Below are positions 15,293-56,474 of a stretch of 64,000 bases of DNA, in pieces. A model generated the notes under the pieces. The model was given only the letters and a program-made list of their open reading frames with translations, did not search any database and was not told the DNA's origin. This DNA comes from an uncultured Holophagae bacterium. Lineage in GTDB: Bacteria > Acidobacteriota > Thermoanaerobaculia > Thermoanaerobaculales > Sulfomarinibacteraceae. The stretch is taken from the NCBI GenBank assembly GCA_963844865.1, contig CAWJPY010000001.1, positions 81,415 through 145,414 on the forward strand, written 5' to 3'. Numbering within the stretch: the first letter of the stretch is position 1; every line of letters starts with the position of its first letter. The position numbers were made by a program, and so were the translations under genes.

Positions 15293-15295
15293 GGC

Positions 15296-23788: not shown

Positions 23789-23804
23789 CGGTGACGGAGG
23801 CCTG

Positions 23805-26975: not shown

Positions 26976-26978
26976 CCG

Positions 26979-32800: not shown

Positions 32801-33077
32801 TGCGGAGGTGGACTACGACATCCTGGCCGGCCGCGACGGCGGAACCAAGCTCGCCTCGCGGCTGGGCTGGTTGGCCGCCGGCTCCCTCGACCACGAGGGC
32901 CCGCCGACCCAGGGCATGCGCGAGGTGGCCTTCGATATCGCCCGCGGGGTCGCGGAGCAGAAGAAGGCGCTGGAGCGCTGGATCGGGCAGGACCTGGCCG
33001 CCTTCAACGCCGCGGCGGCCCGGCTCGGGCTGCCGCACGTCGTCTCCGATGCCACAAGCGAGGCTCAGTCGAAGTAG
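29876..33077 (+). pseudogene. BNR/sortilin (VPS10)-like repeat glycosidase-like exported protein, disrupted by about 8 frameshifts
   Basis: Signal peptide MRNHPLRHALLLLALSLLVGG, then repeated S.DGG.TW motifs. The conserved sequence continues across all three forward frames, with switches near 30385, 30625, 30815, 31025, 31140, 31680, 31730 and 31885. The last 1.2 kb is a single frame. Confidence 0.8.
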
Positions 33078-33370
33078 TCGACCTTGCAGCCGCAGCCGTC
33101 CCACATCCGCTCGTAGATCTCCAGGCGGCTGTCCAGGAGGTGGTTCGCCTGCTCCCTGGTCGACGTCCGACGCACCAGGATCTTTCCGTCCGGCGTCTCC
33201 TCTTGGACGACGGTCATTCCCCGCACGTCCAGGATGCGGATCATGCCGGCCACCAGGGTGTCGTCCTCGCGGATGGCCACGGCTGCGGCGAGCAGGGCAT
33301 CCAGGGTCTCGCGGTCGATGACGGTGTAGGCCTCACGGCCCAGGTCGCCGATCAGCGTGTCCAGATCCAC
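33065..33370 (-). CDS. small protein of unknown function, paralog 1 (C-terminal YERMWDGCGCKVDYF motif)
   Basis: About 50% identical to the 39326-39676 product over ~95 aa. GTG 33370 after GGAGGA aligns with the paralog's Met. The upstream part of ORF 33065-33595 is Arg-rich and not coding-like. Confidence 0.6.
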   Translation of the reverse strand: MDLDTLIGDLGREAYTVIDRETLDALLAAAVAIREDDTLVAGMIRILDVRGMTVVQEETPDGKILVRRTSTREQANHLLDSRLEIYERMWDGCGCKVDYFD

Positions 33371-33679
33371 GGGTCCTCCATTCCCGGCGAACGCGTTCAC
33401 ACGCCGTCGCCCTCTCAACACGACTTCGAGGTGCCGGCATTTCGGTGAGCCGCATCCCTGGCGCACCACAGCCACGTGACAACGCGAGGTCCGGTCGCGC
33501 CTGGCGGTGATGCTCGTGCAGGTCGGTGGGCCCGTCTCCTCCCCGCGGATCGACGATCCAGCCCCCCCACCCCCGAGCCCTCGCGACGACTCCACCTGTG
33601 TGGTTGACGCCGAGCCGCGGGAAATGGCGTGTCGAGGCGGGCCGTCCGTGGATTTCCGAGAGTCGCCACCCCATCGCCC

Positions 33680-33708
33680 TTGCCATTTTTGAACATATGA
33701 TCTAAATT
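33680..33708 (+). promoter_or_regulatory. putative sigma-70 promoter giving a near-leaderless DUF134 transcript
   Basis: TTGCCA, a 17-nt spacer, TAAATT. The -10 element ends 8 nt before ATG 33717, and there is no SD sequence before that ATG. Confidence 0.4.
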
Positions 33709-33716
33709 ACTCCTCG

Positions 33717-34103
33717 ATGGGCAGACCCGAGAAGCTCAGGACTGTGGGTTGCCGCGCCGGGGTGCGCGGTTTCAAACCCGTGGGACGGCCGGTGGTGGAG
33801 CTCGAGGTGGAGGTGCTGCGCCTCGACGAGCTCGAGGCGCTGCGCCTGGCGGACCTGGAAGGTCTTTACCAGGAGGCTGCCGCGGAGAGGATGGGGGTCT
33901 CCCGTCCCACCTTCGCCCGCATCCTCCAGCGGGCCAGGGCGACCGTCGCCAGGGCCCTGCTGGAGGAGCGGTTCCTGGCCGTGGGCGAGGGCCCAGTGGT
34001 CCGCTCACCGGACGGGACGCTGCCCTGCCCGATCCACGGTGGACGCCGGCGGCGCGGCCGCGGCTGCCGCTGCCGGCGCGGTCAGGGCCGGACCGAGACC
34101 TGA
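33717..34103 (+). CDS. DUF134 (UPF0251) putative DNA-binding protein with a Cys/Arg-rich tail
   Basis: MGRPEKLRTVGC...FKPVGRP N-terminus and the sigma-70 region-4-like HTH (EAAERMGVSRPTFARILQRAR). The tail is CPIHGGRRRRGRGCRCRRG. Confidence 0.75.
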   Translation: MGRPEKLRTVGCRAGVRGFKPVGRPVVELEVEVLRLDELEALRLADLEGLYQEAAAERMGVSRPTFARILQRARATVARALLEERFLAVGEGPVVRSPDGTLPCPIHGGRRRRGRGCRCRRGQGRTET

Positions 34104-34138
34104 GGACGTCGACGACGGGACAGAGAGGAGAACAGGGA

Positions 34139-34546
34139 ATGATGACGATCGCGGTTCCGATGATCGGTGAGAGGTTCAGCGAGCACTTCGGGGGCGCCCA
34201 GTCGTTCGCGCTGTATGACGTGGACGAGGAAGGACGGACGTTCGACGGACGGCGAGTCCTGGCCACGCCTGCCCATGAACGGGGGGTCTTCCCCGCTTGG
34301 CTGCGGGAGATCGGCGCCACGGTGGTGCTGGCCAGCGGCATGGGACCGCGGGCCAGCGGCATGCTCGCCCAGTACGGCATCGAGGTCGTGCTCGGGGTAC
34401 AGGGAGACGACCCCGATCAGGTCGTACGCGACTTCCTGGCCGGGACCCTGCAGGCAACCGGCGAGCCCTGCCACGACCAGAGCTTCCACGACTGCTCGCA
34501 CCACGAACGACGTGGCGGCGGCGGGTGCGGCGGTCACCACAACTGA
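34139..34546 (+). CDS. NifX/NafY-like cofactor-binding-fold protein with a Cys/His-rich tail
   Basis: IAVPM...SEHFGGAQSFALYDV...VLASGMGPRASGMLAQYGIEVV. The tail is CHDQSFHDCSHHERRGGGGCGGHH. Confidence 0.7.
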   Translation: MMTIAVPMIGERFSEHFGGAQSFALYDVDEEGRTFDGRRVLATPAHERGVFPAWLREIGATVVLASGMGPRASGMLAQYGIEVVLGVQGDDPDQVVRDFLAGTLQATGEPCHDQSFHDCSHHERRGGGGCGGHHN

Positions 34547-34556
34547 GGAGGATTGG

Positions 34557-34955
34557 ATGGCACAGGACAGAAGCAGTGCCCAGAGCACGGGAATCAGGGG
34601 CCGCACCCCCGGCGGGCGTGGCAGTGGGGGCGGACGAGGCATGGGAGGAGGTGGACGAGGCATGGGAGGAGGTGGACGAGGCATGGGAGGAGGTGGGGGA
34701 AGAGGAGCCGGCGGAGGCGGAGGAATGGGTGGTGGCGGCGGCAGGGGAATGGGCCCGGGCGGGGGCGGCATGGGCGGGGGCGGCTTCTGCGTCTGCGCCA
34801 AGTGCGGCCAGCGATTCCCTCATCGCCCAGGTGTGCCGTGTCTGGAGGAGCGCTGCCCCGATTGCGGCGTCGCACTGGTGCGGGAGGGCTCGGCACATCA
34901 CCGCGAGATCGAGGCGCGCCGGAGCCGCAGAGGTGGTGACAACGACGCGGGCTGA
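34557..34955 (+). CDS. Gly/Arg-rich low-complexity protein with a C-terminal zinc-ribbon-like Cys motif
   Basis: About 70 aa of GGRGMGGG-type repeats, then FCVCAKCGQRFPHRPGVPCLEERCPDCG. GGAGGA lies before ATG 34557. Confidence 0.6.
   Translation: MAQDRSSAQSTGIRGRTPGGRGSGGGRGMGGGGRGMGGGGRGMGGGGGRGAGGGGGMGGGGGRGMGPGGGGMGGGGFCVCAKCGQRFPHRPGVPCLEERCPDCGVALVREGSAHHREIEARRSRRGGDNDAG
34632..34694 (+). repeat. perfect in-frame 21-bp tandem repeat x3
   Basis: GGACGAGGCATGGGAGGAGGT occurs three times, encoding GRGMGGG x3. Confidence 0.9.
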
Positions 34956-34996
34956 TGCCTGACTCAGGGCGAGACAGCCCGGAGAGGAGCACGGAG

Positions 34997-35299
34997 ATGC
35001 CGTTTGGAGATGGAACTGGACCGTTGGGAGCGGGCCCCGGAACGGGATGGGGTGCAGGCTGGTGTCGCGGCCCTCGGGGTGGCCGTGGCGGCCACGGCTG
35101 GCGGAACGTCTACCACGCCACCGGCATGCCCGGGTGGATGCGCGGCGGCTGGTCGGGGGCGAGGGGAGCCTATCCCACGGCGCCCCACGGCGGCGAGCGC
35201 GACCTGCTCGAGCGCCAGGTCGAGGCCGTGGAGGCGGAGCTGCGATGGATGAGGCAGCGGCTCGAGGAACTCGGCCACGAGGACGGAAAGTCGCAGTAG
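34997..35299 (+). CDS. DUF5320-like protein (Gly-rich N-terminus plus coiled coil)
   Basis: MPFGDGTGPLGAGPGTGWGAGWC... start and the C-terminal heptad-like LLERQVEAVEAELRWMRQRLEEL. Confidence 0.6.
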   Translation: MPFGDGTGPLGAGPGTGWGAGWCRGPRGGRGGHGWRNVYHATGMPGWMRGGWSGARGAYPTAPHGGERDLLERQVEAVEAELRWMRQRLEELGHEDGKSQ

Positions 35300-35349
35300 C
35301 CGCAAGACGACAGACGCGCCCGCGGCGGGCACAGGACAAGGAGAGGCAC

Positions 35350-35712
35350 ATGAAGGTCGTAGTTACCTCGAGTGGGAAGAGTCTGGATGCAGCGGTGGAC
35401 CCACGCTTCGGGCGGGCGCCGCAGTTCATATGCGTCGACACGGCAACCGGCGAGACCACGGTGGTCGACAACACGGCCGGTGTGAGCGCGGCCCAGGGCG
35501 CCGGCGTGCAGGCCGCCGAGACGGTGGCACGGCTCGGCGCCGACTGCCTTCTCACCGGGCACTGCGGACCGAAGGCGTTCCGAGCTCTGGAGGCCGCCAA
35601 CATCCCCGTGTACGTGGGCGCGTCCGGAACCGTCGCCGACGCACTTCAGCAGCTCGAGAAGGGCCGGCTCGAGCGTGCCACAAAGCCGGACGTGGGGGGT
35701 CACTGGGCGTGA
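35350..35712 (+). CDS. NifX/NafY-like cofactor-binding-fold protein
   Basis: MKVVVTSSGKSLDAAVDPRFGRAPQFICVD...LTGHCGPKAFRALEAANIPVY is the canonical pattern of this family. Confidence 0.75.
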   Translation: MKVVVTSSGKSLDAAVDPRFGRAPQFICVDTATGETTVVDNTAGVSAAQGAGVQAAETVARLGADCLLTGHCGPKAFRALEAANIPVYVGASGTVADALQQLEKGRLERATKPDVGGHWA

Positions 35713-36593
35713 TCGTAACCATCGCTTCCGGCAAGGGCGGTACCGGCAAGACCACGCTCGCCGTCAACCTGGCCCTCAGCTTCGGCCGCCCGGTGCAGCT
35801 TCTGGACTGCGACGTGGAGGCGCCGAACGACCACCTCTTTCTGCGGCCCCGGATCACTGCCAGCAACCCGGCCGGAATCCCGGTGCCCCGCATCGACCCC
35901 GAGGTCTGCTCTGCGTGCGGAGACTGCGCCGCCCTCTGCCAGTTCAACGCCCTGGCGGTGCTCCAAGACAGGGTCCTGGTCTTCGACGAGCTGTGCCATG
36001 GCTGCGGGGGCTGTCTGCTGGTCTGCCCGGAAGGGGCCGTCACCGAGGTCCTGCGGCCGATCGGCGTGGTGGAGCGAGGTCACGCGGGAGCGGTGCGGGT
36101 GGTGCAGGGCCGTCTCGACGTGGGGGAGCCGCAGTCACCACCCCTCATCCGGGAGGTGATCAGGCACGCGGACCGCGACGGCGTCGTGCTCATCGACGCA
36201 CCGCCCGGCACCTCCTGCCCCATGATCAACGCCGTCCGCGGCAGCGACCTGGTGCTCCTGGTGACCGAGCCGACCCCATTCGGCCTCAACGACCTGACCC
36301 TCGCGGTCGAAGCGGTCCGCGCATTGGGCCTGCCGTGCGCCGTGATTCTCAACCGCTCCGATTGCGGCGACCGCCGGGTCCATGAGTACTGCGCGGCCGA
36401 GGACATCGAGATCCTCCTGGAGATCCCCGATGACCGACGGATCGCCGAAGCGTCGACGCGAGGGGAATGCGCGGTGGACGCCGTACCGGAGCTGCGACCG
36501 GTGTTCGAGCGTCTCGCGCGCCGGATCGAGGAGGTCGTGGCCGATGCGCAGCCCATGGCCATGGAAGGAGTTCGATTCCGTGCCGACATATGA
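35709..36593 (+). CDS. MinD/ParA-type P-loop ATPase with inserted 2x[4Fe-4S] ferredoxin domain (COG1149-like), copy 1
   Basis: Deviant Walker A SGKGGTGKTT, ferredoxin insert CSACGDCAALC...CHGCGGCLLVCP, and Walker B VLIDAPPG. The GTG start overlaps the preceding stop. Confidence 0.8.
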   Translation: MIVTIASGKGGTGKTTLAVNLALSFGRPVQLLDCDVEAPNDHLFLRPRITASNPAGIPVPRIDPEVCSACGDCAALCQFNALAVLQDRVLVFDELCHGCGGCLLVCPEGAVTEVLRPIGVVERGHAGAVRVVQGRLDVGEPQSPPLIREVIRHADRDGVVLIDAPPGTSCPMINAVRGSDLVLLVTEPTPFGLNDLTLAVEAVRALGLPCAVILNRSDCGDRRVHEYCAAEDIEILLEIPDDRRIAEASTRGECAVDAVPELRPVFERLARRIEEVVADAQPMAMEGVRFRADI

Positions 36594-36846
36594 ATATGTG
36601 TGCGATGAGTGCGGACACCGCTTCGAGCGCTTTCAGCTCATGAGTGCGCCGCCAGCAAAGGTCTGTCCGTCCTGCGGGGGCCCGGTGCGCCGTCTGATCG
36701 GGAGCGGCTCCGGCTTCCTGATCCGGGGTCGGCAGCATGCCCGCTCGACGGCTGCGGGGGCCGGTCGTTGCGGTCACGAGGCGCCTTGCTGCGGCCGCGA
36801 GGAGCGCTGTGAGCGGCCACCTTGCGGTGAGCAGCGCGATGCCTGA
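36580..36846 (+). CDS. FmdB-family zinc-ribbon protein
   Basis: PTYEYVCDECGHRFE...CPSCGG is the CxxC..CxxC signature. GTG start after GGAAGGAG. Confidence 0.7.
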   Translation: MPTYEYVCDECGHRFERFQLMSAPPAKVCPSCGGPVRRLIGSGSGFLIRGRQHARSTAAGAGRCGHEAPCCGREERCERPPCGEQRDA

Positions 36847-37806
36847 CAGTAGGATGCGATCCCTGCCTCTCGCGCCGAGCCGAGGTGACCAGGCCCCGGT
36901 GAGGGAGCTGGTGGTGGTCAGCGGCAAGGGGGGAACGGGCAAGACGAGCCTGCTCGCCTCGTTCGCCGCCCTCGCGCGCGACGCCGTGCTCGCCGACTGC
37001 GACGTGGACGCCGCCGACCTCCATCTCGTGCTCGGCCCCCGGGTCGAGGAACGCCACGTCTTTTCGAGCGGTCACGATGCCGTGATCCGGGAGCGGGACT
37101 GTACCGGTTGCGGCGACTGTGTCGAGCTCTGTCGTTTCGACGCCATCGCTTGGGCGGACGGAGCTCCGTCGCCGGTCGTCGACCCGATCGCCTGCGAGGG
37201 CTGCGGGGTGTGCGTCCACCTCTGTCCCGCCAGGGCCATCGACTTCGAGTCCCGACGCTGCGGCGAGTGGTTCATCTCCGAAACCCGTTGGGGCCCCATG
37301 GTGCACGCCCGCCTCGGCATCGCCGCCGAGAACTCGGGCAAGCTGGTGACCACGGTACGGAACGAGGCCAGAAGAGTGGCCGCCGCCAGCGACCGCGACC
37401 TCATCCTCGTCGATGGGCCGCCGGGCATCGGCTGCCCCGTCATCGCGAGCATCACCGGCGCCTCGGCGGTGCTGGCGGTGGCCGAGCCCTCCGTCTCCGG
37501 CGAGCACGACGTGGACCGGGTGCTCCAGCTCGCGGACCACTTCAAGGTCCCGACCGCGGTCTGCGTCAACCGCTGGGACCTCAACCCGGAGGTTGCTGAC
37601 CGCATCGAGCACAGGGCGCGCGAGCGGGGCGGGATCATCGCCGGCAGGGTCCGCTATGACCCTTCGGTCACGGTTGCCCAGGTCAGGGGAATCAGCGTCC
37701 TCGAGCTGGGGGAGGGGCTGCGAACGACATTCGGGGGGTCTTCGAGACCGTCGTCGCGTCGTGCAGCGCACTGCACGGAGCCGGGACCAGACCCGAGGGC
37801 GCCTGA
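36839..37806 (+). CDS. MinD/ParA-type ATPase with inserted ferredoxin domain, copy 2 (apparent -1 frameshift near 37717)
   Basis: SGKGGTGKTS, CTGCGDCVELC...CEGCGVCVHLCP and LVDGPPG motifs. After ...VLELGEG the family-like, high-GC3 continuation AANDIRGVFETVVASCSALHGAGTRPEGA* is in the -1 frame and stops at 37806. The in-frame continuation to 38122 has poor codon bias and overlaps the convergent gene. Confidence 0.65.
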
Positions 37807-38010
37807 CGCTACCGCTGCACAACGCACCAGAAGGGTCCTTTCGAGTGGGCAGTGTGCCGCACAACGCGGGACGCAGACGCGTCCGACGTGCGCAGCCAGT
37901 GCCCTACTTCCAGCGCTACCTGGATGCAATGCACAAGCTGCAGGCGATCGTGATGAACCTGGCCCTGGAGAGCGAGCCAGGACACAGGGCCGGAGCGTCC
38001 GTGCGAGAGC

Positions 38011-39294
38011 TCAACCTCCGAAGCCGCCGGCCGGCGCCGGACGCGATGAGCGGACCGCCTCCAGGACCTCGGGAAGCCCCGCCGCCAGCCGCTCGATGGC
38101 GGCCAGCGGCATGCCCGCATAGCCGAACCTAATGCAGCCGGGCGCGCCGAACGCACTCCCCGGGATGGCGCTGAAGCGCCCCATGTCGATGGCGGTATCG
38201 ATGACGGCCTGGTCGTTCTCGATCCCCTCCGGAAGGCGAGCCAGCAGGGAGATACCTCCCCGCGGCACGCCGTGTCGCGACACCACGGCGAAGCCGAGCG
38301 AGCGCAGCGCATCGACCATCGCGTCCCGGCGACGCCGCAGCTCCTCCTTGACGGCTCCCAGGATGGAGGGGCTCCGTCCGACCTCGAGATCGGCGACGTC
38401 GGACGCCAGCATGTCGATCGTGAGGCGTTGGCCGAGGACGTTCGGGGACGACGAGGTGGAGCGGATCAGTCGCGGCATCCACTCGCCGCTGAAGGTCGCG
38501 TCGGCGCTCAGCACGTAGCCGGTGCGGGCGCCGGGGATGAGGTACTCCTTGGAGGCGGCGCCGATCACGAGGGTGCGCTCCGGCGCGAAGGCGAGCAGGG
38601 TGCGGGGCTCATCGTCGTACCGGATCCAGTTGTACACCTCGTCCGCCACCAGGATCAGGTCGTGCTCCCGCGCCAGGTCGGCCAGCGCCGCCAGCTCGTC
38701 GTCTGAGAGCACGTCCCCGGTGGGGTTGGCGGGGAAGTTCACGAGCAAGGTGCGGATGTCCGAACCATGGACGGCCGCGGCCAGGCCCGCCCCGTCGAAG
38801 CTGCCGTCCTCTTGAAAGAAGTCCAAGACCTCGACGCTGCCGCCCGCGTGGGCGATGATGTTGCGGTAGTTCCCCCAGAAGAACCTCTGCACGCCGACCC
38901 TGCGACCGGGAGCCAGCAAGCGCATCAGGATCGCGATCCCCTCCGTGGCCCCGGAGACAATGGCCACGTGCTGGGGCCCGAGACCCCCTTCAGGCAGGCC
39001 TTCCTTCTTCTCGAGGCCGTACGCCAAGGTCCAGAACCGTCCCGCCAGGCGACGCAGGTCGGGCAAGCCCGAGGACGGGCCATAGTAGACCTCCCGCTGC
39101 GGCATCACGCCCACCACCTGGCCCTGATCGCCGCGCACGAACCCCGGGTGCGCCGCAGCAGCGGCCGCAGCCCTGGCCGCGATCTGCGGGATCACCGGCG
39201 CCGAGGTGACGGTCTGCCGCATGGCGGGCGGCATGGCCTTCCACATCGCGGCGAGCATCGGCCGTTCAGCGATTGCTGTCTCCGGAGCGCTCAT
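38011..39294 (-). CDS. class I/II PLP-dependent aminotransferase
   Basis: NFPANPTG, the ASKEYLIPGARTGY (Lys) motif and C-terminal CIRFGY. Confidence 0.8.
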   Translation of the reverse strand: MSAPETAIAERPMLAAMWKAMPPAMRQTVTSAPVIPQIAARAAAAAAAHPGFVRGDQGQVVGVMPQREVYYGPSSGLPDLRRLAGRFWTLAYGLEKKEGLPEGGLGPQHVAIVSGATEGIAILMRLLAPGRRVGVQRFFWGNYRNIIAHAGGSVEVLDFFQEDGSFDGAGLAAAVHGSDIRTLLVNFPANPTGDVLSDDELAALADLAREHDLILVADEVYNWIRYDDEPRTLLAFAPERTLVIGAASKEYLIPGARTGYVLSADATFSGEWMPRLIRSTSSSPNVLGQRLTIDMLASDVADLEVGRSPSILGAVKEELRRRRDAMVDALRSLGFAVVSRHGVPRGGISLLARLPEGIENDQAVIDTAIDMGRFSAIPGSAFGAPGCIRFGYAGMPLAAIERLAAGLPEVLEAVRSSRPAPAGGFGG

Positions 39295-39325
39295 GGGTCA
39301 CCTCCACGGTGCGATGGTCTCACCC

Positions 39326-39676
39326 CTACAGGCTCGCATCCCGCTCTGGGCCGGGGCCTTCCCGGTCTTGACCACCGAAGTAGTCGATCCTGCAGCCGCA
39401 CCTGTCCCACATGCGCTCGTAGCTGGCCAGCCGGTGCTCGACGAGACGCTCTGCGTCCTCCTGGGACGGAACCCGGCGCACCAGCACCTCTCCGCCCGGG
39501 GTCTCCTCCTGGACGATCGTCAGCCCGTCGATCGTGAGGATGCGGATCCAGCCCGTGATGCAGGTGTCGTCCCGGCGCACGAGCTCGGCTGCTGCGAGCA
39601 ACTCGCCCAGCGTGCTGCGGTCGATCGCCGTCAGAGCGTGCCGGCTCAGGTCGGTGACCAGTCTCTCGAGGCTCAA
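39326..39676 (-). CDS. small protein of unknown function, paralog 2 (YERMWDRCGCRIDYF motif)
   Basis: It aligns with the 33065-33370 product: IDR.TL..LLAAA...R.DDT...G.IRIL...G.T.VQEETP.G..LVRR......A..L...RL..YERMWD.CGC..DYF. Confidence 0.65.
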   Translation of the reverse strand: MSLERLVTDLSRHALTAIDRSTLGELLAAAELVRRDDTCITGWIRILTIDGLTIVQEETPGGEVLVRRVPSQEDAERLVEHRLASYERMWDRCGCRIDYFGGQDREGPGPERDASL

Positions 39677-39793
39677 CGTGTCCTCCCATGCTCTGGCGCG
39701 GGGTCGCCCCTCGTCACGGCCACCCCGGCGCGCTCTCCCCGCGACCGGGGCGGGACCCGGATCTCATCGCCGCCCACCTCGGCGGCAAACCCG

Positions 39794-40231
39794 TCAATCG
39801 TACCTCCGGCGGGTATCCTCGTCGGTGACGACCGAGCGAATCATGTCCTGCCATTCAGCGGACTCCCAGGTCCCGAGCGCCTGATGGGTGGCGTAGTAGC
39901 TCTGTGGAATGGGATGGGTGCCGAGCACCACCTTCATGGCGTACCGCTCCTCGATGAACCTGCGGAAGTCGTCGAGGTACGGGCACGGGGGATAACCCAC
40001 GAGCAGCCCGGTGGCGAGGTGCATGACCTCGACCCCGTTGCTCTTCATTTCGGCCGGAGCGTACTCAACATTGCCTCCCGGGCAGCCGTCGCAGGTCGTG
40101 TACCCCGCCAGCTCCACGTCCTCGTCCCGGTAGGCCGCGAACGCCCCCTCGCGCGCCTTGAGCGCCCGCAGGCACTTCCCTCCGGCGCACCTGCGCCAGC
40201 GGTCACAGATGATGATGCCGAGCTTCTTCAT
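39794..40231 (-). CDS. CGGC-domain protein
   Basis: MKKLGIIICD...CAGGKC...YTTCDGCPGG pattern. ATG 40231 after GGAAAGGAA. Confidence 0.7.
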   Translation of the reverse strand: MKKLGIIICDRWRRCAGGKCLRALKAREGAFAAYRDEDVELAGYTTCDGCPGGNVEYAPAEMKSNGVEVMHLATGLLVGYPPCPYLDDFRRFIEERYAMKVVLGTHPIPQSYYATHQALGTWESAEWQDMIRSVVTDEDTRRRYD

Positions 40232-40254
40232 GTCGGGTTCCTTTCCAATGATGG

Positions 40255-41151
40255 TCACACAACGCTCGTGTCGGTGGTCCCCCCAGCCGGTGTCGGGGCT
40301 CCCAGGTGGCCCTCCCTACCCATGATCGCGACGATGGCGTTGGCGATCACTGCCATCGCCGGGCTCGGCGTGTCATCGGCGGCAAGCAGCCTTCCAGCGT
40401 CGCCGCGGGTCACGATCTGCGGGTCGATCGGGACTCTGCCGAGAAATCGCACCCCCGTAGCCTCGGCCAGCCTCTCACCGCCCCCCGCCTTGAAGAGGTC
40501 GATGTGGTGGCCGCACGTCGGACAGATCAGGCCGCTCATGTTCTCGAGAATGCCTTCCACCGGCAGCGACACCTCACGGCAGAAGCTGAGCGATCGTCGG
40601 ACGTCGGCCACCGCCAGGTCCTGCGGCGTCGTGACAAGCACGGCCGACACCCTGGGTCGGACGAGCTCTGCCACGGCGAGGGGCTCGTCGCCGGTCCCGG
40701 GCGGGGCGTCGATGATGAGAAAATCGAGGGCCCCCCACTCCACCTGCTGCAGGAACTGGCGAATGATCATGTACTTACGGGGCCCCCTCCAGACCACTGC
40801 ATCGTTGTCGCTGGGCAAGAGAAAGCCGATGGACATCACCTTGATCCCGGCGGCCGCAGTCACCGGGAGGAGGCGCTCGTCATCGCCGATGACCTGCTGG
40901 CCTTCCAGGCCCATGAGCTTCGGGATGCTCGGCCCGTGAATGTCGACGTCCAGCAGCCCCACGGCCTTGCCCGCAGCCGCCAGAGCAAGGGCGAGGCCGG
41001 CGGCCACCGTGCTCTTGCCGACTCCCCCCTTGCCGGAGAGCACGAGAATCTTGCGGTCGATCCGCTCCATCCGCTCCCGAAGGGCCTGGTCGGCAACCTC
41101 TCTGGCGGCCCGATCCGTGTTGGAATGCGCCTGACCCGGCTTTCCCGCCAT
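40255..41151 (-). CDS. Mrp/NBP35 (ApbC-like) Fe-S cluster carrier ATPase
   Basis: SGKGGVGKST, FLIIDAPPGTGDE and the CPTCGHHIDLF (CxxC) motif. ATG 41151 after GGAAGAAGG; an alternative ATG is at 41244. Confidence 0.85.
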   Translation of the reverse strand: MAGKPGQAHSNTDRAAREVADQALRERMERIDRKILVLSGKGGVGKSTVAAGLALALAAAGKAVGLLDVDIHGPSIPKLMGLEGQQVIGDDERLLPVTAAAGIKVMSIGFLLPSDNDAVVWRGPRKYMIIRQFLQQVEWGALDFLIIDAPPGTGDEPLAVAELVRPRVSAVLVTTPQDLAVADVRRSLSFCREVSLPVEGILENMSGLICPTCGHHIDLFKAGGGERLAEATGVRFLGRVPIDPQIVTRGDAGRLLAADDTPSPAMAVIANAIVAIMGREGHLGAPTPAGGTTDTSVV

Positions 41152-41282
41152 GTGCGACCTTCTTCCTGACCTTGTCACCTCTCCCCAGCCCCACCAGAGC
41201 GGCACGAGGACGCGAGCGGCGATCCGTTCCTCCTCGGGCGCCATGTCTCTGACGCCAGGGTTTCGCCTTCCAGTGCAAGGCA

Positions 41283-41298
41283 TGCAACCGAGCTGCCA
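41283..41298 (-). promoter_or_regulatory. putative sigma-54 promoter upstream of the mrp-CGGC-paralog2-aminotransferase operon
   Basis: The minus strand reads TGGCAG-CTCGG-TTGCA, with GG and GC exactly 12 nt apart as in the TGGCAC-N5-TTGCW consensus. The predicted TSS is near 41272. Confidence 0.5.
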
Positions 41299-41653
41299 AC
41301 CCCGCGGAGAGCATGAGACGGTGAGGAGCAACGGCGGGACATGAGGCCCGAGCAAGGACCCGGAAGCTCTCGATGCTTCGATGAGCCGCCTCCGGGACCT
41401 CCAGACCTGGGAAGCAAGACTCGCATTTTGCTCATGACCGGTTCGAGATGCGCGAGCGAAATGCACGCCGACGGGAGGACCGCTCCAGGTGGCATCCTCT
41501 CTCGAGCGGGCTGCACACCCCGTCCGACTCGGCCGAACCTCGTTTCGACGATCGCGGCACTGATCTTGCTCTCACTGGATCAGGCGTACGACCACGAGGC
41601 GACCGAGCTTGCTCGGCCGAGACCGTGAGAGATGACGACGAGGAGGTGTGAGG

Positions 41654-44149: not shown

Positions 44150-44181
44150 CCGGACCCGGAAGGTCTCGCGACCCCGAGTCT

Positions 44182-52511: not shown

Positions 52512-52910
52512 ATGAAGGCACTGCTGGTCCTCTCTGAGCGTGAGCCGCTCCTGATCGTCACCCCGCGCGCGGCCATCCGTGATGGCCGCCTGGCGGCTGA
52601 CCTTGCCGGCAGAGGGTTGCCGAGGTTCATCGCGTACGACCTGCCGCTGGAGAAGGTGCGCGAGAGATATGGCCCGTCGTTCTCAGTCATCGAGCGGGCG
52701 GTCATGACGGGCCGGCGGTCCCGCGTGCTCGACTTCGACGGCGCGAGGACCTTCCGCCACCTCTCCATCTCCGACCTCGGCTCATCGTTCGTCTGCGACC
52801 GCGATGAGCGTCAAGCTTCGGATGTTCCGCGGCGGGGGGCCTCCCCCCTCTGGGAAAGCGAGCGTCCGCCGAGCACCAGAACCGGGTGCCGAGACGATCG
52901 ACCGTGGTGA
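52512..52910 (+). CDS. hypothetical small cytoplasmic protein
   Basis: Strong GC3 bias over roughly the first 95 codons (MKALLVLSEREPLLIVTP...FIAYDLPLEKVRERYG...VLDFDGARTFRHLSISDLG), GGGGGA before the ATG. The 3' tail overlaps the convergent rSAM gene and loses codon bias. Confidence 0.5.
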   Translation: MKALLVLSEREPLLIVTPRAAIRDGRLAADLAGRGLPRFIAYDLPLEKVRERYGPSFSVIERAVMTGRRSRVLDFDGARTFRHLSISDLGSSFVCDRDERQASDVPRRGASPLWESERPPSTRTGCRDDRPW

Positions 52911-53796
52911 CCTCATCACTGGCGGCGAGCTCGGCGAGCGCCTCCTGGGCCCACGGCTGCGACCAGCCTTCCAGGGCGGACAGCACCTCATCCTGGCGCA
53001 GGGGATGGCGCCGAATGATCCCGACCAAGTGATCGGCGGACTCGGCGACCAACCTGAGGGCTCGCCCCCCGGCACCGGCCACGACCACCGGTGAAACTCC
53101 ACCCAGGATCGACACAGCTCGGTCGAGCTGCGAGCGCTCCGGGGGCCACACCCACGCCTCCGCGGGCGGCCGCGTGGGAACGTTGATCTGGACCTCGTCG
53201 GGCTGGATGCGACGCAACGCTTCGGCCAGGTCCGTGAGCGCTTCCTCGCTGTCATTGAGCCCGCGCACGAGCATGACCTCCAGCCACAGCCGTCCCTCGT
53301 ACTGCCGGCGGAAGGCGGACAGCCCGCCGATGATCTGCTCGACACGGAGCGAGCGGTGGGGGCGGTTGATGGTGTCGAAGAGCGGGTCGCTGGCGGCGTC
53401 CAGGCTCGGCAGGACGGCGTCCGCCCCCGCCAACTCTCGATGCATCTCCCCCCGGTGCAGGAGGGAGCCGTTGGTGATGACCGCGATCGGCAGGTCGCTG
53501 ATCGTCCGCAGCCTCCGGATCATCCAGCCCAGGCGAGAGTGGAGGGTGGTCTCCCCCGAGCCCACGAACGTGAGCCAATCCACGGATCCCGGCCGAAGGC
53601 GCGCGAGCGTCTCCTCGACCTCGGACACGATTTCTTCTGCGGGGACGTACTCCTTGCGGCCCACGACCAGAGGATGAGTCCGGCCCAGCTGGCAGTACAC
53701 GCAGCTGAGGTCGCAGGTTTTCAGAGGAAGGGGGTCGATCCCGAGAGAGCGACCCAGCCGCCGTGAGGGTACCGGTCCGAAGACATACTTCACCAC
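52702..53796 (-). CDS. radical SAM protein (COG0731-like)
   Basis: FGPVPSRRLGRSLGIDP...CDLSCVYCQLG CxxxCxxC motif and the GSGETTL SAM-binding motif. The last ~55 codons are Arg-rich and low in GC3. Confidence 0.8.
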   Translation of the reverse strand: MVKYVFGPVPSRRLGRSLGIDPLPLKTCDLSCVYCQLGRTHPLVVGRKEYVPAEEIVSEVEETLARLRPGSVDWLTFVGSGETTLHSRLGWMIRRLRTISDLPIAVITNGSLLHRGEMHRELAGADAVLPSLDAASDPLFDTINRPHRSLRVEQIIGGLSAFRRQYEGRLWLEVMLVRGLNDSEEALTDLAEALRRIQPDEVQINVPTRPPAEAWVWPPERSQLDRAVSILGGVSPVVVAGAGGRALRLVAESADHLVGIIRRHPLRQDEVLSALEGWSQPWAQEALAELAASDEVTTVDRLGTRFWCSADARFPRGGRPPAAEHPKLDAHRGRRRTMSRGRRWRGGGRSSRRRSRARGTAGPS

Positions 53797-54762: not shown

Positions 54763-54778
54763 AGCAATGTTCCTGCCA
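54763..54778 (-). promoter_or_regulatory. putative sigma-54 promoter of the NifX-like/TrmO/rSAM operon
   Basis: The minus strand reads TGGCAG-GAACA-TTGCT (GG/GC spacing as in the consensus), located between the sigma-54 activator stop and the NifX-like ATG. The predicted TSS is 3-4 nt before ATG 54749, so the transcript would be near-leaderless. Confidence 0.45.
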
Positions 54779-56268: not shown

Positions 56269-56474
56269 GATAGCCCACCTCACGCGTGCGCACTGCGACC
56301 GTTGATCTCTCCTTGCGATCGGCCCCGGCGCGGTCGCAGCCTCGTCTACGCTCTATGATCAGATCTCGGCCGATCGATGTCAAAGGCGGCACACGACGAC
56401 CGTCCGGCCTCGGGTAGCTGCAGTGTTGAAGGACCCGTTTGGCGAGCCGGCGTCCTTTCCTCATAATGCGGCCG

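What the first reader, a model, noticed from the sequence alone, without database searches (positions are those of the whole stretch)
33065..41298. An 8-kb orphan metallocluster-handling gene cluster made almost entirely of uncharacterised families
Thirteen adjacent genes are built from families that bind or traffic Fe-S or other metal cofactors. As a set they have no assigned pathway.

Genes:
- DUF134 HTH protein with a Cys/Arg tail.
- Two NifX/NafY-fold proteins, one with a CHD..CSHH..CGGHH tail.
- A Gly/Arg-rich zinc-ribbon protein.
- DUF5320.
- Two MinD-type ATPases, each interrupted by a 2x[4Fe-4S] ferredoxin domain.
- An FmdB zinc ribbon.
- A PLP aminotransferase.
- A CGGC-domain protein.
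- Mrp/NBP35.
- Two paralogous CGC-motif proteins.

Organisation: the plus-strand genes overlap or abut (35709/35712, 36580/36593, 36839/36846), which suggests translational coupling. The minus-strand half has a near-consensus sigma-54 promoter.

Established knowledge: the NifX fold binds FeMo-co precursors, Mrp/NBP35 scaffolds 4Fe-4S clusters, and SIMIBI ATPases insert metal centres.

Inference: the cluster may be a dedicated ATP-driven assembly or delivery line for a complex Fe-S(-like) cofactor in an organism with no nitrogenase genes nearby. It could serve the neighbouring redox complexes. The function and client of this combination are, to my knowledge, undescribed.
Basis: partly seen in the sequence, partly recalled or inferred. 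Interest (0 to 1): 0.75.

Follow-up and report, generated by a model that had tools for sequence, protein, structure and literature searches.

The report
Orange-protein (ORP) metal-cluster gene cluster

Summary
The 13 ORFs exist as described, and 10 of them match the stated Pfam families. The set is not "orphan". Its core matches the Desulfovibrio ORP system:
- an orange-protein homologue, 46% identical to D. gigas ORP (its best PDB hit);
- two paralogous MinD-type ATPases with 2x[4Fe-4S] inserts (Orp3/Orp4-like);
- an Mrp that best matches NCBIfam "MrpORP", here split from its NifX-like domain;
- sigma-54 promoters;
- 13 kb away, a PAS-sigma-54 activator carrying OrpR's C-x-D-x6-C-x3-C and GAFTDA signatures.

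In 80 loci from many anaerobic bacterial and archaeal phyla, the ATPase pair, ORP, other NifX-like proteins, DUF5320, Mrp, the FmdB ribbon, the Gly/Arg zinc ribbon and DUF134 cluster tightly. The aminotransferase and the CGC proteins do not; they are lineage-specific additions. Elsewhere, gene fusions join ORP or NifX to Gly/Arg-rich linkers plus DUF5320 or the zinc ribbon, giving an IssA-like architecture.

The system extends beyond the given coordinates: an OYE-type flavoenzyme gene, a third NifX gene with TrmO-like and radical-SAM genes, and the activator. The second ATPase gene carries an apparent 1-nt frameshift.

Verdict: new member of a known kind. The physiological role is unresolved, and interest is moderate.

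The parts
33065..33370 (-). CGC-motif protein 1 (about 101 aa; invariant YERMWDGCGC at the C-terminus). A lineage-specific accessory gene, divergent from DUF134.
   Evidence: GTG start after GGAGG. The family has only 23 clusters in 5.8 billion proteins; alignment. No Pfam or NCBIfam match. Found at the same position in L001 and L002.
33680..33708 (+). Sigma-70-like promoter, TTGCCA-17-TAAATT, immediately upstream of the DUF134 start.
   Evidence: 2 sites found against 0.3 expected in this region; sequence. Consensus match only.
33717..34103 (+). DUF134 helix-turn-helix protein with a Cys/Arg-rich tail; first gene of the plus-strand operon and a probable local regulator.
   Evidence: Pfam DUF134, 2e-18. 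Present in 27% of full loci. Rarely occurs together with the sigma-54 activator: 2 of 80 loci.
34142..34546 (+). NifX-like protein 1. It corresponds to the 'Di-Nase' C-terminal domain of MrpORP, encoded here as a separate gene, with a Cys/His tail.
   Evidence: Pfam Nitro_FeMo-Co. NCBIfam MrpORP model positions 265-365, 88 bits. Best PDB hit is TM1290.
34557..34955 (+). Gly/Arg-rich protein with a C-terminal CxCxxCG...H...PC...CPxCG knuckle. It is the candidate counterpart of the small Orp5/Dde_3197 [2Fe-2S] protein.
   Evidence: Conserved family lying just upstream of the first ATPase in 27 of 80 loci. The Orp5 equivalence rests on position only (PMC6345978, ref. 23) and was not tested.
34955..35299 (+). 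DUF5320: a Gly/Arg/Trp-rich N-terminal part plus a coiled coil. The start is more likely 34997, which gives MPFGDGTGP.
   Evidence: Pfam DUF5320, 2e-13. Present in 61% of full loci. Composition. Fused to ORP in 11 loci.
35350..35712 (+). Orange protein (ORP/Orp8) homologue; a single-domain NifX/MTH1175-fold protein.
   Evidence: Best PDB hit is 2WFB, D. gigas ORP, E=2.3e-24. 46% identity over 114 aa. Present in 88% of full loci.
35709..36593 (+). MinD-type ATPase 1 with a 2x[4Fe-4S] ferredoxin insert (Orp3/Orp4-like, 'MF1').
   Evidence: Pfam CbiA, ParA and Fer4. More than 8000 homologues. 47% identical to the MF1 proteins that sit next to D. gigas-type ORPs.
36580..36846 (+). FmdB-type zinc ribbon with a Cys-rich tail.
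   Evidence: Pfam Zn_ribbon_8 and TIGR02605. Present in 46% of full loci.
36839..37806 (+). MinD-type ATPase 2 with a 2x[4Fe-4S] insert ('MF2'). An apparent 1-nt frameshift lies in the G-run at about 37708-37716. The start could also be 36854 or about 36899.
   Evidence: Pfam. Paired with MF1 in 98% of full loci. 50-54% identical to MF2 of L084 and L086. Frameshift shown.
38011..39294 (-). Class I/II PLP aminotransferase. Not part of the conserved ORP neighbourhood; a lineage-specific companion of the CGC and CGGC genes.
   Evidence: Pfam. No NCBIfam model reaches its cut-off. Present in 5% of loci and not enriched. Colinear OYE-CGC-AT-x-CGGC arrangement in L087.
39326..39676 (-). CGC-motif protein 2, a paralogue of CGC1.
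   Evidence: AlphaFold model with pLDDT 83. No PDB fold match.
39794..40258 (-). CGGC-domain protein.
   Evidence: Pfam CGGC, 3.7e-26. Found in about 10% of loci, all on the anchor strand. Also present in L001, L003 and L087.
40255..41151 (-). Mrp/NBP35-type ATPase corresponding to the P-loop domain of MrpORP (Orp9). It has GKGGVGKS and CPTC motifs.
   Evidence: NCBIfam NF041136 MrpORP, 358 bits over model positions 1-249, against 217 bits for ApbC. Pfam ParA, 309 bits.
41283..41298 (-). Sigma-54 promoter-like site TGGCAGctcggTTGCA upstream of the Mrp-CGGC-CGC2-AT operon.
   Evidence: One mismatch to TGGCAC-N5-TTGCW.
41555..41570 (+). Second sigma-54-like site, CGGCACtgatcTTGCT, divergent from the first and about 80 nt upstream of the OYE gene.
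   Evidence: One mismatch.
41648..43591 (+). OYE/FadH-type Fe-S flavoenzyme (Oxidored_FMN plus Pyr_redox_2); a probable co-regulated neighbour.
   Evidence: Pfam and NCBIfam (below cut-offs). Recurs near the cluster in L003, L087 and 17 of the 83 fetched loci. Not enriched within 5 kb of the anchor.
52702..53796 (-). Radical-SAM protein (CxxxCxxC motif; weak MoaA-like match).
   Evidence: Pfam Radical_SAM. NCBIfam matches far below cut-offs. A radical-SAM gene follows the activator and NifX gene in L001 and is paired with a TrmO_N gene in L087.
53790..54251 (-). TrmO/TsaA-like protein.
   Evidence: Pfam TrmO_N. TIGR00104, 96 bits against a cut-off of 93.
54300..54749 (-). NifX-like protein 3. 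This is the type that is the first gene after the sigma-54 promoter in activator-containing loci.
   Evidence: Pfam Nitro_FeMo-Co, 2.6e-7. Similar NifX proteins in L052, L020 and L029. Position conserved in L001.
54763..54778 (-). Third sigma-54 promoter-like site, TGGCAGgaacaTTGCT. It is conserved in relative L001 as CTGGCAGGGAGATTGCTGG.
54895..56283 (-). OrpR-like enhancer-binding protein: a PAS domain with C57-x-D59-x6-C66-x3-C70, an AAA+ domain with GAFTDA, and HTH_8.
   Evidence: Pfam and sequence. The OrpR signature is C52, D/E54, C61, C65 (PMC8359166); GAFTDA is the DVU2106 motif (PMC4641369). The same flanking genes (MFS, Inositol_P) occur in L001, where the activator abuts the cluster.

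Best explanation
The locus encodes an ORP (orange protein) system, the anaerobe-specific complex first described in Desulfovibrio vulgaris.

Shown here by homology and gene context:
- an orange-protein homologue (NifX/MTH1175 fold);
- a conserved pair of paralogous deviant-Walker-A ATPases, each carrying a 2x[4Fe-4S] ferredoxin insert (Orp3/Orp4-like);
- an MrpORP-type Fe-S carrier, here split into a P-loop gene and a separate NifX-like gene;
- small Gly/Arg-rich partner proteins (DUF5320 and a Cys4 knuckle protein);
- a DUF134 helix-turn-helix protein;
- sigma-54 promoters, and an OrpR-type activator whose PAS domain keeps the Cys triad that binds a redox-sensing [4Fe-4S] cluster in Desulfovibrio.

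Taken from published work on the Desulfovibrio homologues:
- Orp3, Orp4 and Orp8 co-purify.
- MrpORP loads [4Fe-4S] clusters onto them.
- ORP holds a linear Mo-Cu-sulfide cluster without covalent bonds.
- The operons are transcribed only at very low redox potential.

My inference for this locus:
- Under strongly reducing conditions OrpR switches on the Mrp operon, the OYE gene and the NifX3-TrmO-like-radical SAM operon. The DUF134-led operon runs from its own sigma-70-type promoter.
- Mrp matures the two ATPases.
- The ATPase heterodimer uses ATP-driven dimerisation and its ferredoxin inserts to assemble, reduce or hand over an anionic inorganic metal-sulfide species.
- That species is carried non-covalently by the NifX-fold proteins and shielded by the cationic Gly/Arg-rich partners.

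The client and the physiological purpose remain unknown.
For: 1. ORP identity. The best PDB hit of the second NifX-like protein is 2WFB, D. gigas ORP (E=2.3e-24), at 46% identity. Proteins 68-74% identical to D. gigas ORP sit in the same arrangement, DUF134-ORP-MF1-MF2-NifX-Zn_ribbon_8. The window's MF1 and MF2 are their orthologues: 47% and 50-54% identity, against 31-34% for cross-pairs.

2. MrpORP. NCBIfam NF041136 gives 358 bits for the Mrp over model positions 1-249, against 217 bits for ApbC. NifX1 adds 88 bits over positions 265-365. The fused two-domain form occurs in 12 related loci.

3. Regulation. Three sigma-54-like sites with one mismatch each lie at the right distance from gene starts. 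One is conserved in L001. The activator has OrpR's C-x-D-x6-C-x3-C and GAFTDA motifs (PMC8359166; PMC4641369). In activator-containing loci, near-consensus sigma-54 sites lie right before the first NifX gene, at 0.29 per kb on the gene strand against 0.11-0.14 per kb for the opposite strand and for loci without the activator.

4. Co-inheritance. The survey used 80 loci from Desulfobacterota, Planctomycetota, Dehalococcoidia, Acidobacteriota, Ignavibacteria, Firmicutes, Bathyarchaeota, Thorarchaeota and methanogens. In the 41 loci with at least 4 kb on both sides: MF2 98%, ORP-like 88%, other NifX 78%, DUF5320 61%, Mrp 54%, FmdB ribbon 46%, activator 39%, DUF134 27%, Gly/Arg knuckle protein 24%. 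Density near the anchor is about 5-20 times the density in the distal flanks, and 93-100% of the core-family hits are on the anchor strand.

5. Gene fusions. ORP plus a GMGRG-rich linker plus the DUF5320 coiled coil occurs in 11 loci. ORP or NifX plus a Gly/Arg-rich stretch plus the Cys4 knuckle occurs in 4 loci.

6. Published biochemistry of the Desulfovibrio complex: PMC6345978, PMC8359166, PMC3897727.
Against: - I could not fetch the D. vulgaris orp locus, so Orp3, Orp4, Orp5, Orp7 and OrpR were compared only by architecture, signatures and published descriptions.
- Organisation differs from Desulfovibrio. The two halves converge instead of diverging around orpR, and the activator is 13 kb away.
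- The plus-strand operon has no sigma-54 site, only a sigma-70-like one.
- The Desulfovibrio OrpR binding palindrome GGGCGYRTTTTGCGCCC is absent from the promoter regions. There is one match, inside a nuo gene, which is chance level. I found no shared upstream motif.
- Sigma-54-like matches are not enriched in the window overall.
- MF2 carries an apparent frameshift in its last ~32 codons.
- The mechanism is inferred. Even in Desulfovibrio the role is stated to be unclear (PMC8359166).
Confidence: 0.78

Rival explanations
1. The system is a split, IssA-like store and dispenser of inorganic iron-sulfur (thioferrate-type) or other metal-sulfide polymer. NifX-fold proteins nucleate the anionic chain. 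The Gly/Arg(/Trp)-rich DUF5320 and knuckle proteins bind it electrostatically, as the IssA tail does. The ferredoxin-ATPases and Mrp mobilise it into [4Fe-4S] clusters. This refines the mechanism; it does not propose a different identity.
For: - IssA is an IPR003731 (NifX-like) domain plus a cationic Gly/aromatic-rich tail that binds thioferrate. MTH1175 is placed in the IssA clade (PMC5524996).
- The window's ORP-like protein matches MTH1175 (1EO1) at 1.8e-14.
- The DUF5320 N-terminal part is 35% Gly, 9% Arg/Lys and 12% aromatic, with pI 11.3. The knuckle protein's N-terminal part is 59% Gly with pI 12.0.
- Fusions of ORP or NifX with Gly/Arg-rich stretches recreate the IssA layout in 15 loci.
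Against: - None of the window's three NifX-like proteins meets the published IssA-clade criteria. Their pI values are 5.3-6.1 against a required pI of at least 9.
- The resemblance of the tails is compositional only; I did not have the IssA tail sequence.
- Native D. gigas ORP carries a Mo-Cu-sulfide cluster, not thioferrate, and MrpORP's authors state its cluster differs from IssA's (PMC6345978).
Confidence: 0.15
2. The complex is primarily a MinD/ParA-like positioning or cell-division system. This is the hypothesis favoured in the Desulfovibrio literature. The metal centres would then serve redox sensing rather than cofactor trafficking.
For: - Inactivating OrpR causes morphological defects in D. 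vulgaris, attributed to loss of the Orp proteins (PMC8359166).
- MrpORP localises to the cell pole, and Orp3/Orp4 are reported to have a MinD-like C-terminal amphipathic helix (PMC6345978).
- MF1 gives weak NCBIfam matches to archaeal and bacterial MinD models.
Against: - No MinC, MinE or FtsZ partners occur in the window or in the conserved neighbourhood. All conserved partners are metal-cluster families: NifX-fold proteins, Mrp and Cys-rich ribbons.
- The MinD model scores are far below cut-off: 72 bits against 202.
- The authors themselves call the role unclear (PMC8359166).
Confidence: 0.12
3. One reading: a previously undescribed, self-contained 13-gene assembly line for a complex cofactor that serves the neighbouring NuoEF-GltD and Hdr-like complexes.
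For: - The families are correctly identified.
- An Hdr-like CCG protein also lies near the relative locus L087.
- The window's HdrD-like, NrfD and Fer4_11 genes sit between the cluster and its activator.
Against: - The core has been described since 2011 (PMC6345978, PMC8359166).
- The aminotransferase and CGC genes are not co-inherited with it.
- The unit extends outside the given coordinates.
- In close relative L001 the activator abuts the cluster with no Hdr-like genes between them, so that block looks like an insertion.
- The Nuo and GltD genes are separated from the cluster by a large sortilin-like (pseudo)gene.
Confidence: 0.04
4. The genes are leftover or divergent nitrogenase FeMo-cofactor biosynthesis genes, as the Pfam name 'dinitrogenase iron-molybdenum cofactor' suggests.
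For: Three Nitro_FeMo-Co domains are present, and a radical-SAM gene lies in the same operon as one of them. That resembles a split NifB.
Against: - No nifHDK/EN family was found among the window ORFs I scanned.
- The radical-SAM protein matches MoaA-type models only weakly, and no NifB model appears among its matches.
- The same cluster occurs across lineages such as Dehalococcoidia, Planctomycetota and Bathyarchaeota, which are not generally regarded as nitrogen fixers (my own knowledge, not checked here).
- The best match is ORP, not NifX or NafY.
Confidence: 0.02

Closest known systems
ORP (orange protein) complex and orp operons of Desulfovibrio vulgaris Hildenborough (Orp3/4/5, Orp7/8/9, OrpR; DVU2103-DVU2109)
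   Same: - ORP homologue.
- Two paralogous MinD-like ATPases with two [4Fe-4S] motifs each.
- Mrp-type Fe-S carrier and additional NifX-like proteins.
- A small Cys-rich protein just upstream of the ATPase pair.
- Sigma-54 promoters.
- A PAS-AAA+-HTH activator with the Cys triad and GAFTDA motifs.
   Different: - MrpORP is split into two genes on opposite strands.
- The two halves converge instead of diverging around the activator, which lies 13 kb away.
- The ATPase operon starts with DUF134 and has a sigma-70-like rather than a sigma-54 promoter.
- DUF5320, the FmdB ribbon, CGGC, CGC proteins, the aminotransferase, OYE, and the TrmO-like and radical-SAM genes are not among the Orp components (Orp3-5, Orp7-9, OrpR) described in the papers I read.
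- The Desulfovibrio OrpR palindrome is not present.
Orange protein of Megalodesulfovibrio (Desulfovibrio) gigas, PDB 2WFB
   Same: 46% identity over 114 residues, the same length (120 aa), and a single NifX/MTH1175-fold domain.
   Different: Whether the window protein binds a [S2MoS2CuS2MoS2]3- cluster is unknown. It has three Cys residues.
MrpORP (Orp9/Dde3202), NCBIfam NF041136
   Same: The P-loop domain is the best NCBIfam match (358 bits) and has the deviant Walker A and CxxC motifs. NifX1 matches the Di-Nase domain (88 bits).
   Different: The two domains are separate polypeptides, so neither reaches the 450-bit cut-off. NifX1 lacks the CxHFGHCE cysteines (it reads SEHFGGAQ) and ends with CHD...CSHH...CGGHH instead of CDH.
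IssA, the thioferrate iron-sulfur storage protein of Pyrococcus furiosus
   Same: A NifX-like (IPR003731) domain works with a cationic Gly-rich, aromatic-containing segment. ORP fusions with Gly/Arg-rich tails occur in related loci.
   Different: In the window the cationic segments are on separate proteins. The NifX-like proteins are acidic (pI 5.3-6.1) and fail the published IssA-clade criteria. There is no evidence for thioferrate.
NifH/NifEN-NifX/NafY logic of nitrogenase cofactor assembly, and other SIMIBI metallochaperones (CooC, Nbp35/Cfd1, ApbC)
   Same: A deviant-Walker-A dimeric ATPase works with NifX-fold carriers of non-covalently bound metal-sulfur clusters.
   Different: There are no nitrogenase or NifEN scaffolds. 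The ATPases carry an internal two-cluster ferredoxin domain rather than a subunit-bridging cluster.

Membership tests
ORP complex / orp gene cluster (Desulfovibrio type) | A single-domain orange protein (Orp8) homologue. | tested here: met
   Best PDB hit is 2WFB at E=2.3e-24. 46% identity. 47-50% identity to L084 and L086 ORPs, which are themselves 68-74% identical to D. gigas ORP.
ORP complex / orp gene cluster (Desulfovibrio type) | Two adjacent paralogous MinD-like ATPases, each with two [4Fe-4S] ferredoxin motifs (Orp3/Orp4). | tested here: met
   Pfam CbiA/ParA plus two Fer4 motifs in both proteins. Invariant GKGGTGKT and two CxxCxxCxxxC motifs. The pair is kept in 98% of full loci. No direct comparison with DVU2103/2104 was possible.
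ORP complex / orp gene cluster (Desulfovibrio type) | An MrpORP-type Fe-S carrier: P-loop domain plus Di-Nase domain. | tested here: inconclusive
   NF041136 is the best model for the Mrp (358 bits, model positions 1-249) and for NifX1 (88 bits, positions 265-365). The domains are on separate genes, and neither reaches the 450-bit cut-off.
ORP complex / orp gene cluster (Desulfovibrio type) | A small Cys-rich [2Fe-2S] protein (Orp5/Dde_3197) encoded before the ATPase genes. | not testable with these tools
   No reference sequence was available. The Gly/Arg-rich Cys4 knuckle protein occupies that position in 27 of 80 loci. In the window, DUF5320 and ORP lie between it and MF1.
ORP complex / orp gene cluster (Desulfovibrio type) | Sigma-54-dependent promoters in front of the operons. 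| tested here: inconclusive
   One-mismatch sites lie before the Mrp operon, the OYE gene and the NifX3 operon, and one is conserved in L001. None lies before the DUF134-to-MF2 operon, which has a sigma-70-like site. These are sequence matches only.
ORP complex / orp gene cluster (Desulfovibrio type) | A cognate OrpR activator: a PAS domain with three conserved Cys (C-x8-C-x3-C) plus an acidic residue, and an AAA+ domain with GAFTDA. | tested here: met
   C57, D59, C66 and C70 are present, as is GAFTDA, matching PMC8359166 and PMC4641369. Domain architecture.
ORP complex / orp gene cluster (Desulfovibrio type) | The OrpR-binding palindrome GGGCGYRTTTTGCGCCC upstream of the promoters. | tested here: not met
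   The only match in the window is at 14059, inside a nuo gene, which is chance level. No shared upstream motif was found. Binding sites may simply differ between phyla.
ORP complex / orp gene cluster (Desulfovibrio type) | Two divergent operons flanking orpR. | tested here: not met
   The two halves converge at about 37.8-38.0 kb. The activator lies at 54.9-56.3 kb. In relative L001 the activator is adjacent to the cluster.
ORP complex / orp gene cluster (Desulfovibrio type) | The proteins form a physical complex, and ORP binds a Mo-Cu-sulfide cluster. | not testable with these tools
   This needs purification and spectroscopy.
IssA (thioferrate storage) clade | An IPR003731 domain protein with pI of at least 9, fewer than 5 Cys, and at least 20% Gly in the last 40 residues. 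| tested here: not met
   NifX1: pI 5.3, 3 Cys, 20% Gly. ORP: pI 6.1, 12% Gly. NifX3: pI 5.9, 18% Gly. Criteria taken from the supplement of PMC5524996.
NifX/NafY/NifB (nitrogenase cofactor maturation) | A NifX-fold protein encoded alongside nitrogenase or NifEN/NifB genes. | tested here: not met
   The fold is present, but no nif structural or scaffold family was found among the scanned window ORFs. The radical-SAM protein shows no NifB-model match.
Mrp/NBP35/ApbC Fe-S carriers | [quoted passage not shown] | tested here: met
   GKGGVGKS and CPTC are present in the 40255-41151(-) product. ApbC model gives 217 bits, below its 348-bit cut-off.

The most novel reading that the evidence does not exclude
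The ORP system, including this locus, is a modular metal-sulfide store and dispenser that works like IssA.
- Acidic NifX-fold proteins (ORP, NifX1, NifX3) nucleate an anionic inorganic Fe-S or Mo/Cu-S chain.
- Cationic Gly/Arg-rich proteins that share the MPRGDGTGP module (DUF5320 and the Cys4 knuckle protein) wrap it.
- The ferredoxin-bearing ATPase pair, together with Mrp, loads and unloads it in response to ATP and redox state.

If so, this would be a widespread, previously unrecognised way for anaerobes to handle Fe, S or Mo directly from sulfide.

In this lineage the CGC proteins, the aminotransferase, CGGC, and the radical-SAM and TrmO-like genes would add a further, unknown chemical step.
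Probability: 0.15. Interest if true: 0.8.

Novelty: new member of a known kind. Interest (0 to 1): 0.4.

Why it matters
The ORP system is one of the most widely conserved gene clusters of anaerobic bacteria and archaea that still lacks a physiological role.

This locus adds nothing fundamentally new to that. The comparative picture built around it does sharpen the question:
- The conserved core is the ATPase pair plus ORP/NifX-fold proteins plus Gly/Arg-rich small proteins plus Mrp.
- Regulation is by either an OrpR-type redox sensor or DUF134.
- Recurrent fusions point to direct contact between NifX-fold domains and cationic Gly/Arg-rich segments.

That gives a concrete, testable link to IssA-type iron-sulfur storage. 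For annotation, these genes should be labelled ORP-system components rather than "nitrogenase cofactor biosynthesis" or "MinD".

Tried and rejected
- An exact look-up of the window's CGGC protein in public assemblies found nothing. Cluster-member look-ups gave no organism names. The only hints are Acidobacteriota labels on a 63%-identical ATPase and on a CGC homologue.
- The founding paper (Fievet 2011, PMC3133258) is not held. Comparison with DVU2103-2109 is therefore indirect.
- The Desulfovibrio OrpR palindrome gave only a chance match. A 12-mer comparison of the regions upstream of the sigma-54 sites found nothing shared. Two inverted repeats in the divergent region, at 41355-41400 and 41423-41464, were not followed up.
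- A repeated TGCACAAC(G/C)C motif downstream of MF2 is conserved in L001 and has one similar copy at 41510. It is only marginally above chance and remains unexplained.
- An Rfam scan found no riboswitch (for example Moco) near the cluster.
- A fold search with the CGC model gave no significant match: best E=0.05, TM no higher than 0.39.
- The IssA tail sequence was not in the paper's supplement, so tail homology to DUF5320 could not be tested.
- Mutual exclusion of DUF134 and the activator is suggestive only: both occur together in 2 loci, against about 4.7 expected by my estimate from the counts. I did not test it statistically, and many contigs are truncated.

Full report
**1. Checking the observation**

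The window is about 70% G+C, so spurious ORFs are common.

Pfam confirms ten of them:
- DUF134.
- Two Nitro_FeMo-Co (NifX-like) proteins.
- DUF5320.
- Two CbiA/ParA P-loop proteins, each interrupted by two 4Fe-4S ferredoxin motifs.
- An FmdB/Zn_ribbon_8 protein.
- A class I/II aminotransferase.
- A CGGC protein.
- A ParA/NUBPL (Mrp) protein.

The Gly/Arg-rich zinc ribbon and the two CGC-motif paralogues match no Pfam or NCBIfam family. The reported gene overlaps are real.

The sigma-54-like site TGGCAGctcggTTGCA lies at 41283-41298 on the minus strand, about 130 nt upstream of the Mrp start. On its own it is not statistically remarkable: 14 matches at up to 2 mismatches in the window, against 20 expected.

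One correction concerns the second ATPase ORF, which runs to 38122. Aligned with the close relative L001, the window lacks one base in a G-run near 37708-37716. In the other frame the protein ends at 37806 with a C-terminus colinear with L001's.

**2. What it is**

Literature searches led to the ORP (orange protein) system of Desulfovibrio. According to PMC6345978 and PMC8359166:
- The D. vulgaris ORP complex contains Orp3 and Orp4 (paralogous ATPases, each with two [4Fe-4S] ferredoxin motifs), Orp5 (homologous to a small [2Fe-2S] protein), Orp8 (the orange protein, a NifX-like protein that holds a Mo-Cu-sulfide cluster non-covalently) and Orp9 (MrpORP, an Mrp/NBP35 P-loop domain fused to a NifX-like "Di-Nase" domain).
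- The genes form two divergent sigma-54 operons activated by OrpR. [quoted passage not shown]
- The genes are expressed only at very low redox potential.
- Their role "is however still unclear".

Sequence tests on the window fit this description:
- The second NifX-like protein has D. gigas ORP (PDB 2WFB) as its best solved-structure match, at E=2.3e-24 and 46% identity.
- The Mrp protein's best NCBIfam model is NF041136, "iron-sulfur cluster carrier protein MrpORP". It scores 358 bits over model positions 1-249, against 217 bits for ApbC. The first NifX-like protein matches positions 265-365 of the same model with 88 bits. MrpORP is therefore split into two genes here.
- Proteins 68-74% identical to D. 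gigas ORP lie in DUF134-ORP-ATPase-ATPase-NifX-Zn_ribbon_8 arrangements.
- The window's two ATPases are orthologous one-to-one to the ATPases in those loci: 47% and 50-54% identity, against 31-34% for cross-pairs.

**3. Regulator and extent**

A 462-aa PAS/Sigma54_activat/HTH_8 protein is encoded at 54895-56283(-). Its PAS domain reads C57-C-D59-x6-C66-x3-C70. That has the same spacing as OrpR's C52, D/E54, C61 and C65. Its AAA+ loop is GAFTDA, the variant listed for DVU2106 (PMC8359166; PMC4641369).

Directly downstream lies a third one-mismatch sigma-54 site (54763-54778). It is followed by:
- a third NifX-like gene (54300-54749);
- a TrmO/TsaA-like gene (53790-54251);
- a radical-SAM gene (52702-53796).

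This promoter and the NifX start are conserved in L001. A further site, CGGCACtgatcTTGCT at 41555-41570(+), faces the Mrp promoter and precedes an OYE/FadH-type flavoenzyme gene.

In L001 the activator abuts the cluster, and the same MFS and inositol-monophosphatase genes follow it as in the window. The 13 kb between cluster and activator in the window therefore looks like inserted or rearranged material. It contains the Mrp operon, the OYE gene, two-component genes and an HdrD/NrfD/Fer4_11 membrane complex.

The DUF134-to-MF2 operon has only a sigma-70-like promoter, TTGCCA-17-TAAATT. The Desulfovibrio OrpR palindrome is absent, and I found no shared upstream motif.

**4. Co-inheritance**

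A scan of one genome per species, anchored on the ferredoxin-ATPase, returned 80 loci. They come from Desulfobacterota, Planctomycetota, Dehalococcoidia, Acidobacteriota, Ignavibacteria, Armatimonadota, Firmicutes, Bathyarchaeota, Thorarchaeota, Methanothrix and Methanocellaceae.

I translated all six frames and searched them with iterated profiles built from the window proteins. Presence within about 5 kb of the anchor, in the 41 loci with at least 4 kb on both sides:

| Family | Loci |
|---|---|
| Second ATPase (MF2) | 98% |
| ORP-like protein | 88% |
| Another NifX-like protein | 78% |
| DUF5320 | 61% |
| Mrp | 54% |
| FmdB ribbon | 46% |
| Sigma-54 activator | 39% |
| DUF134 | 27% |
| Gly/Arg knuckle protein | 24% |
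| OYE | 12% |
| CGGC | 10% |
| Aminotransferase | 5% |
| CGC proteins | 0% |

For the core families, density near the anchor is about 5-20 times that in the distal flanks, and 93-100% of hits are on the anchor strand. The aminotransferase and OYE show no such enrichment within 5 kb.

In activator-containing loci, near-consensus sigma-54 sites lie immediately before the first NifX gene. DUF134 and the activator rarely occur together: 2 of 80 loci. This suggests they are alternative regulators, though many contigs are truncated and I did not test the pattern statistically.

**5. The small proteins and the fusions**

The Gly/Arg-rich zinc ribbon belongs to a well-conserved family. Its pattern is MPRGDGTGP...GRG...G(P)GG-CxCPxCG-x5-H-x3-G-x-PC-x5-CPxCG, and the gene usually lies directly upstream of the first ATPase. 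It shares the MPRGDGTGP/Gly-Arg module with DUF5320, which adds one conserved Cys, Gly/Arg/aromatic repeats and a C-terminal coiled coil.

By position it is the likely counterpart of Orp5/Dde_3197. I could not test this.

Three kinds of fusion occur in the 80 loci:
- Mrp plus the Di-Nase domain, in 12 loci. This is the canonical two-domain MrpORP.
- ORP plus a GMGRG-rich linker plus the DUF5320 coiled coil, in 11 loci.
- ORP or NifX plus a Gly/Arg-rich stretch plus the Cys4 knuckle, in 4 loci.

The last two give a NifX domain followed by a cationic Gly-rich tail. That is the architecture of IssA, the thioferrate iron-sulfur storage protein of Pyrococcus (PMC5524996). The window's own NifX-like proteins are acidic and fail the published IssA-clade criteria. 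Any IssA-like behaviour would therefore have to work in trans.

**6. Lineage-specific parts**

The CGC family has only 23 sequence clusters among 5.8 billion proteins, and one is labelled Acidobacteriota. All members end in YERMWDGCGC. A confident AlphaFold model (pLDDT 83) has no significant PDB neighbour.

In another relative (L087) the genes OYE, CGC, aminotransferase, a 71-aa ORF and CGGC are colinear. TrmO_N and radical-SAM genes lie nearby. These genes therefore form a lineage-specific module attached to the ORP system, not part of its universal core.

**7. Mechanism**

*Shown.* Homology to the ORP components, conserved synteny and fusions, an OrpR-type sensor, and sigma-54 sites.

*From the literature on homologues.* Orp3, Orp4 and Orp8 co-purify. 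MrpORP transfers [4Fe-4S] clusters to them. ORP binds an anionic linear Mo-Cu-sulfide cluster non-covalently. Expression requires a very low redox potential. MrpORP localises to the cell pole, and loss of OrpR causes morphological defects.

*Inferred for this locus.* At low potential the activator turns on the Mrp, OYE and NifX3 operons. Mrp matures the ATPase pair. The ATPase heterodimer uses ATP-dependent dimerisation, as in other deviant-Walker-A (SIMIBI-class) ATPases, together with its ferredoxin inserts. With these it builds, reduces or passes on an inorganic metal-sulfide species. That species is carried by NifX-fold proteins and shielded by Gly/Arg-rich partners.

These are weighed in the rival-explanations section.

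**8. Novelty and verdict**

The core is a known system, so the claim of an undescribed combination fails. This locus is a new member with a rearranged layout: a split MrpORP, a remote activator, a DUF134-led operon and a lineage-specific add-on module.

The wider association with DUF5320, DUF134, the FmdB ribbon and the knuckle protein, and the ORP-Gly/Arg fusions, are not discussed in the papers I could read. They give a testable mechanistic lead.

Interest is moderate (0.4). A specialist would not be surprised by the locus. The unresolved function of a pan-anaerobe system keeps it worth following.

Noticed in passing
window 37700-37806 (G-run at about 37708-37716): There is an apparent 1-nt deletion in the second ferredoxin-ATPase gene relative to close relative L001. 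It shifts the last ~32 codons, so the listed ORF runs on to 38122 and overlaps the aminotransferase gene. It could be an assembly error or a real frameshift.
   Followed up: yes
window 29876-33074 (+): The sortilin/BNR-repeat gene next to the cluster is broken into at least six frame changes relative to the intact 1064-aa ORF of L001 (78-91% identity per segment). It is either a pseudogene or a stretch with many indel errors.
   Followed up: partly
window 37756-37767(-), 37814-37825(+), 37856-37867(+), 41510-41521(+): The motif GC(T/C)GCACAAC(G/C)C occurs repeatedly just downstream of the second ATPase gene. Two copies are conserved in L001, and one similar copy lies in the divergent sigma-54 promoter region. 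The count is 5 matches against 2 expected. A GGACGC-AGAC-GCGTCC hairpin follows at about 37869-37884. Function unknown.
   Followed up: partly
window 41355-41400 and 41423-41464: Two inverted repeats, each with a 20-nt spacer (AGGACCCGGAAGC/GCCTCCGGGACCT and GCATTTTGCTC/GAGCGAAATGC), lie between the two divergent sigma-54-like promoters. They are candidate activator or IHF-type sites.
   Followed up: no
window 46951-51833 (-): A membrane redox module lies between the cluster and its activator. It comprises an HdrD/DsrK-like CCG plus Fer4 protein, a protein with a weak match to nitrate-reductase gamma, a Fer4_11 protein, and a fusion of NrfD with a class III cytochrome c. A weak sigma-54-like site (2 mismatches) lies at 51877-51892(-).
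   Followed up: no
window 43784-46954: A cluster of three stand-alone response-regulator receiver genes and a multi-PAS histidine kinase lies directly after the OYE gene.
   Followed up: no
window 22790-27656 (+): This stretch encodes a NuoE-like protein, a 1056-aa fusion of NuoF (FMN and 4Fe-4S domains) with a GltD-like Pyr_redox_2 module, and a NuoG-N-terminal-like 2Fe-2S/4Fe-4S protein. Together they look like an NADH-linked, possibly electron-bifurcating, flavoenzyme set. I have no evidence linking it to the ORP genes.
   Followed up: no
window 2347-2696 (-), 22230-22303 (+), 5997-18546 (+): Housekeeping features: a tmRNA gene (tag ANNDYALAA), a tRNA-Lys(UUU) gene, a nuo operon that lacks NuoEFG within it (30-kDa, 49-kDa, NuoH and three antiporter-like subunits), and an ATP synthase a-subunit gene.
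   Followed up: no
L084 8414-8752 (+): In the locus that carries the closest relative of D. gigas ORP, a 112-aa protein made almost entirely of GQGRGQG repeats sits between DUF134 and ORP. It is another Gly/Arg-rich partner with no family assignment.
   Followed up: no
L001 8518-9626 and L003 17113-17583: cNMP-binding (Crp/Fnr-type) genes recur next to the cluster in close relatives but are absent from the window. They may represent a further regulatory input in this lineage.
   Followed up: no
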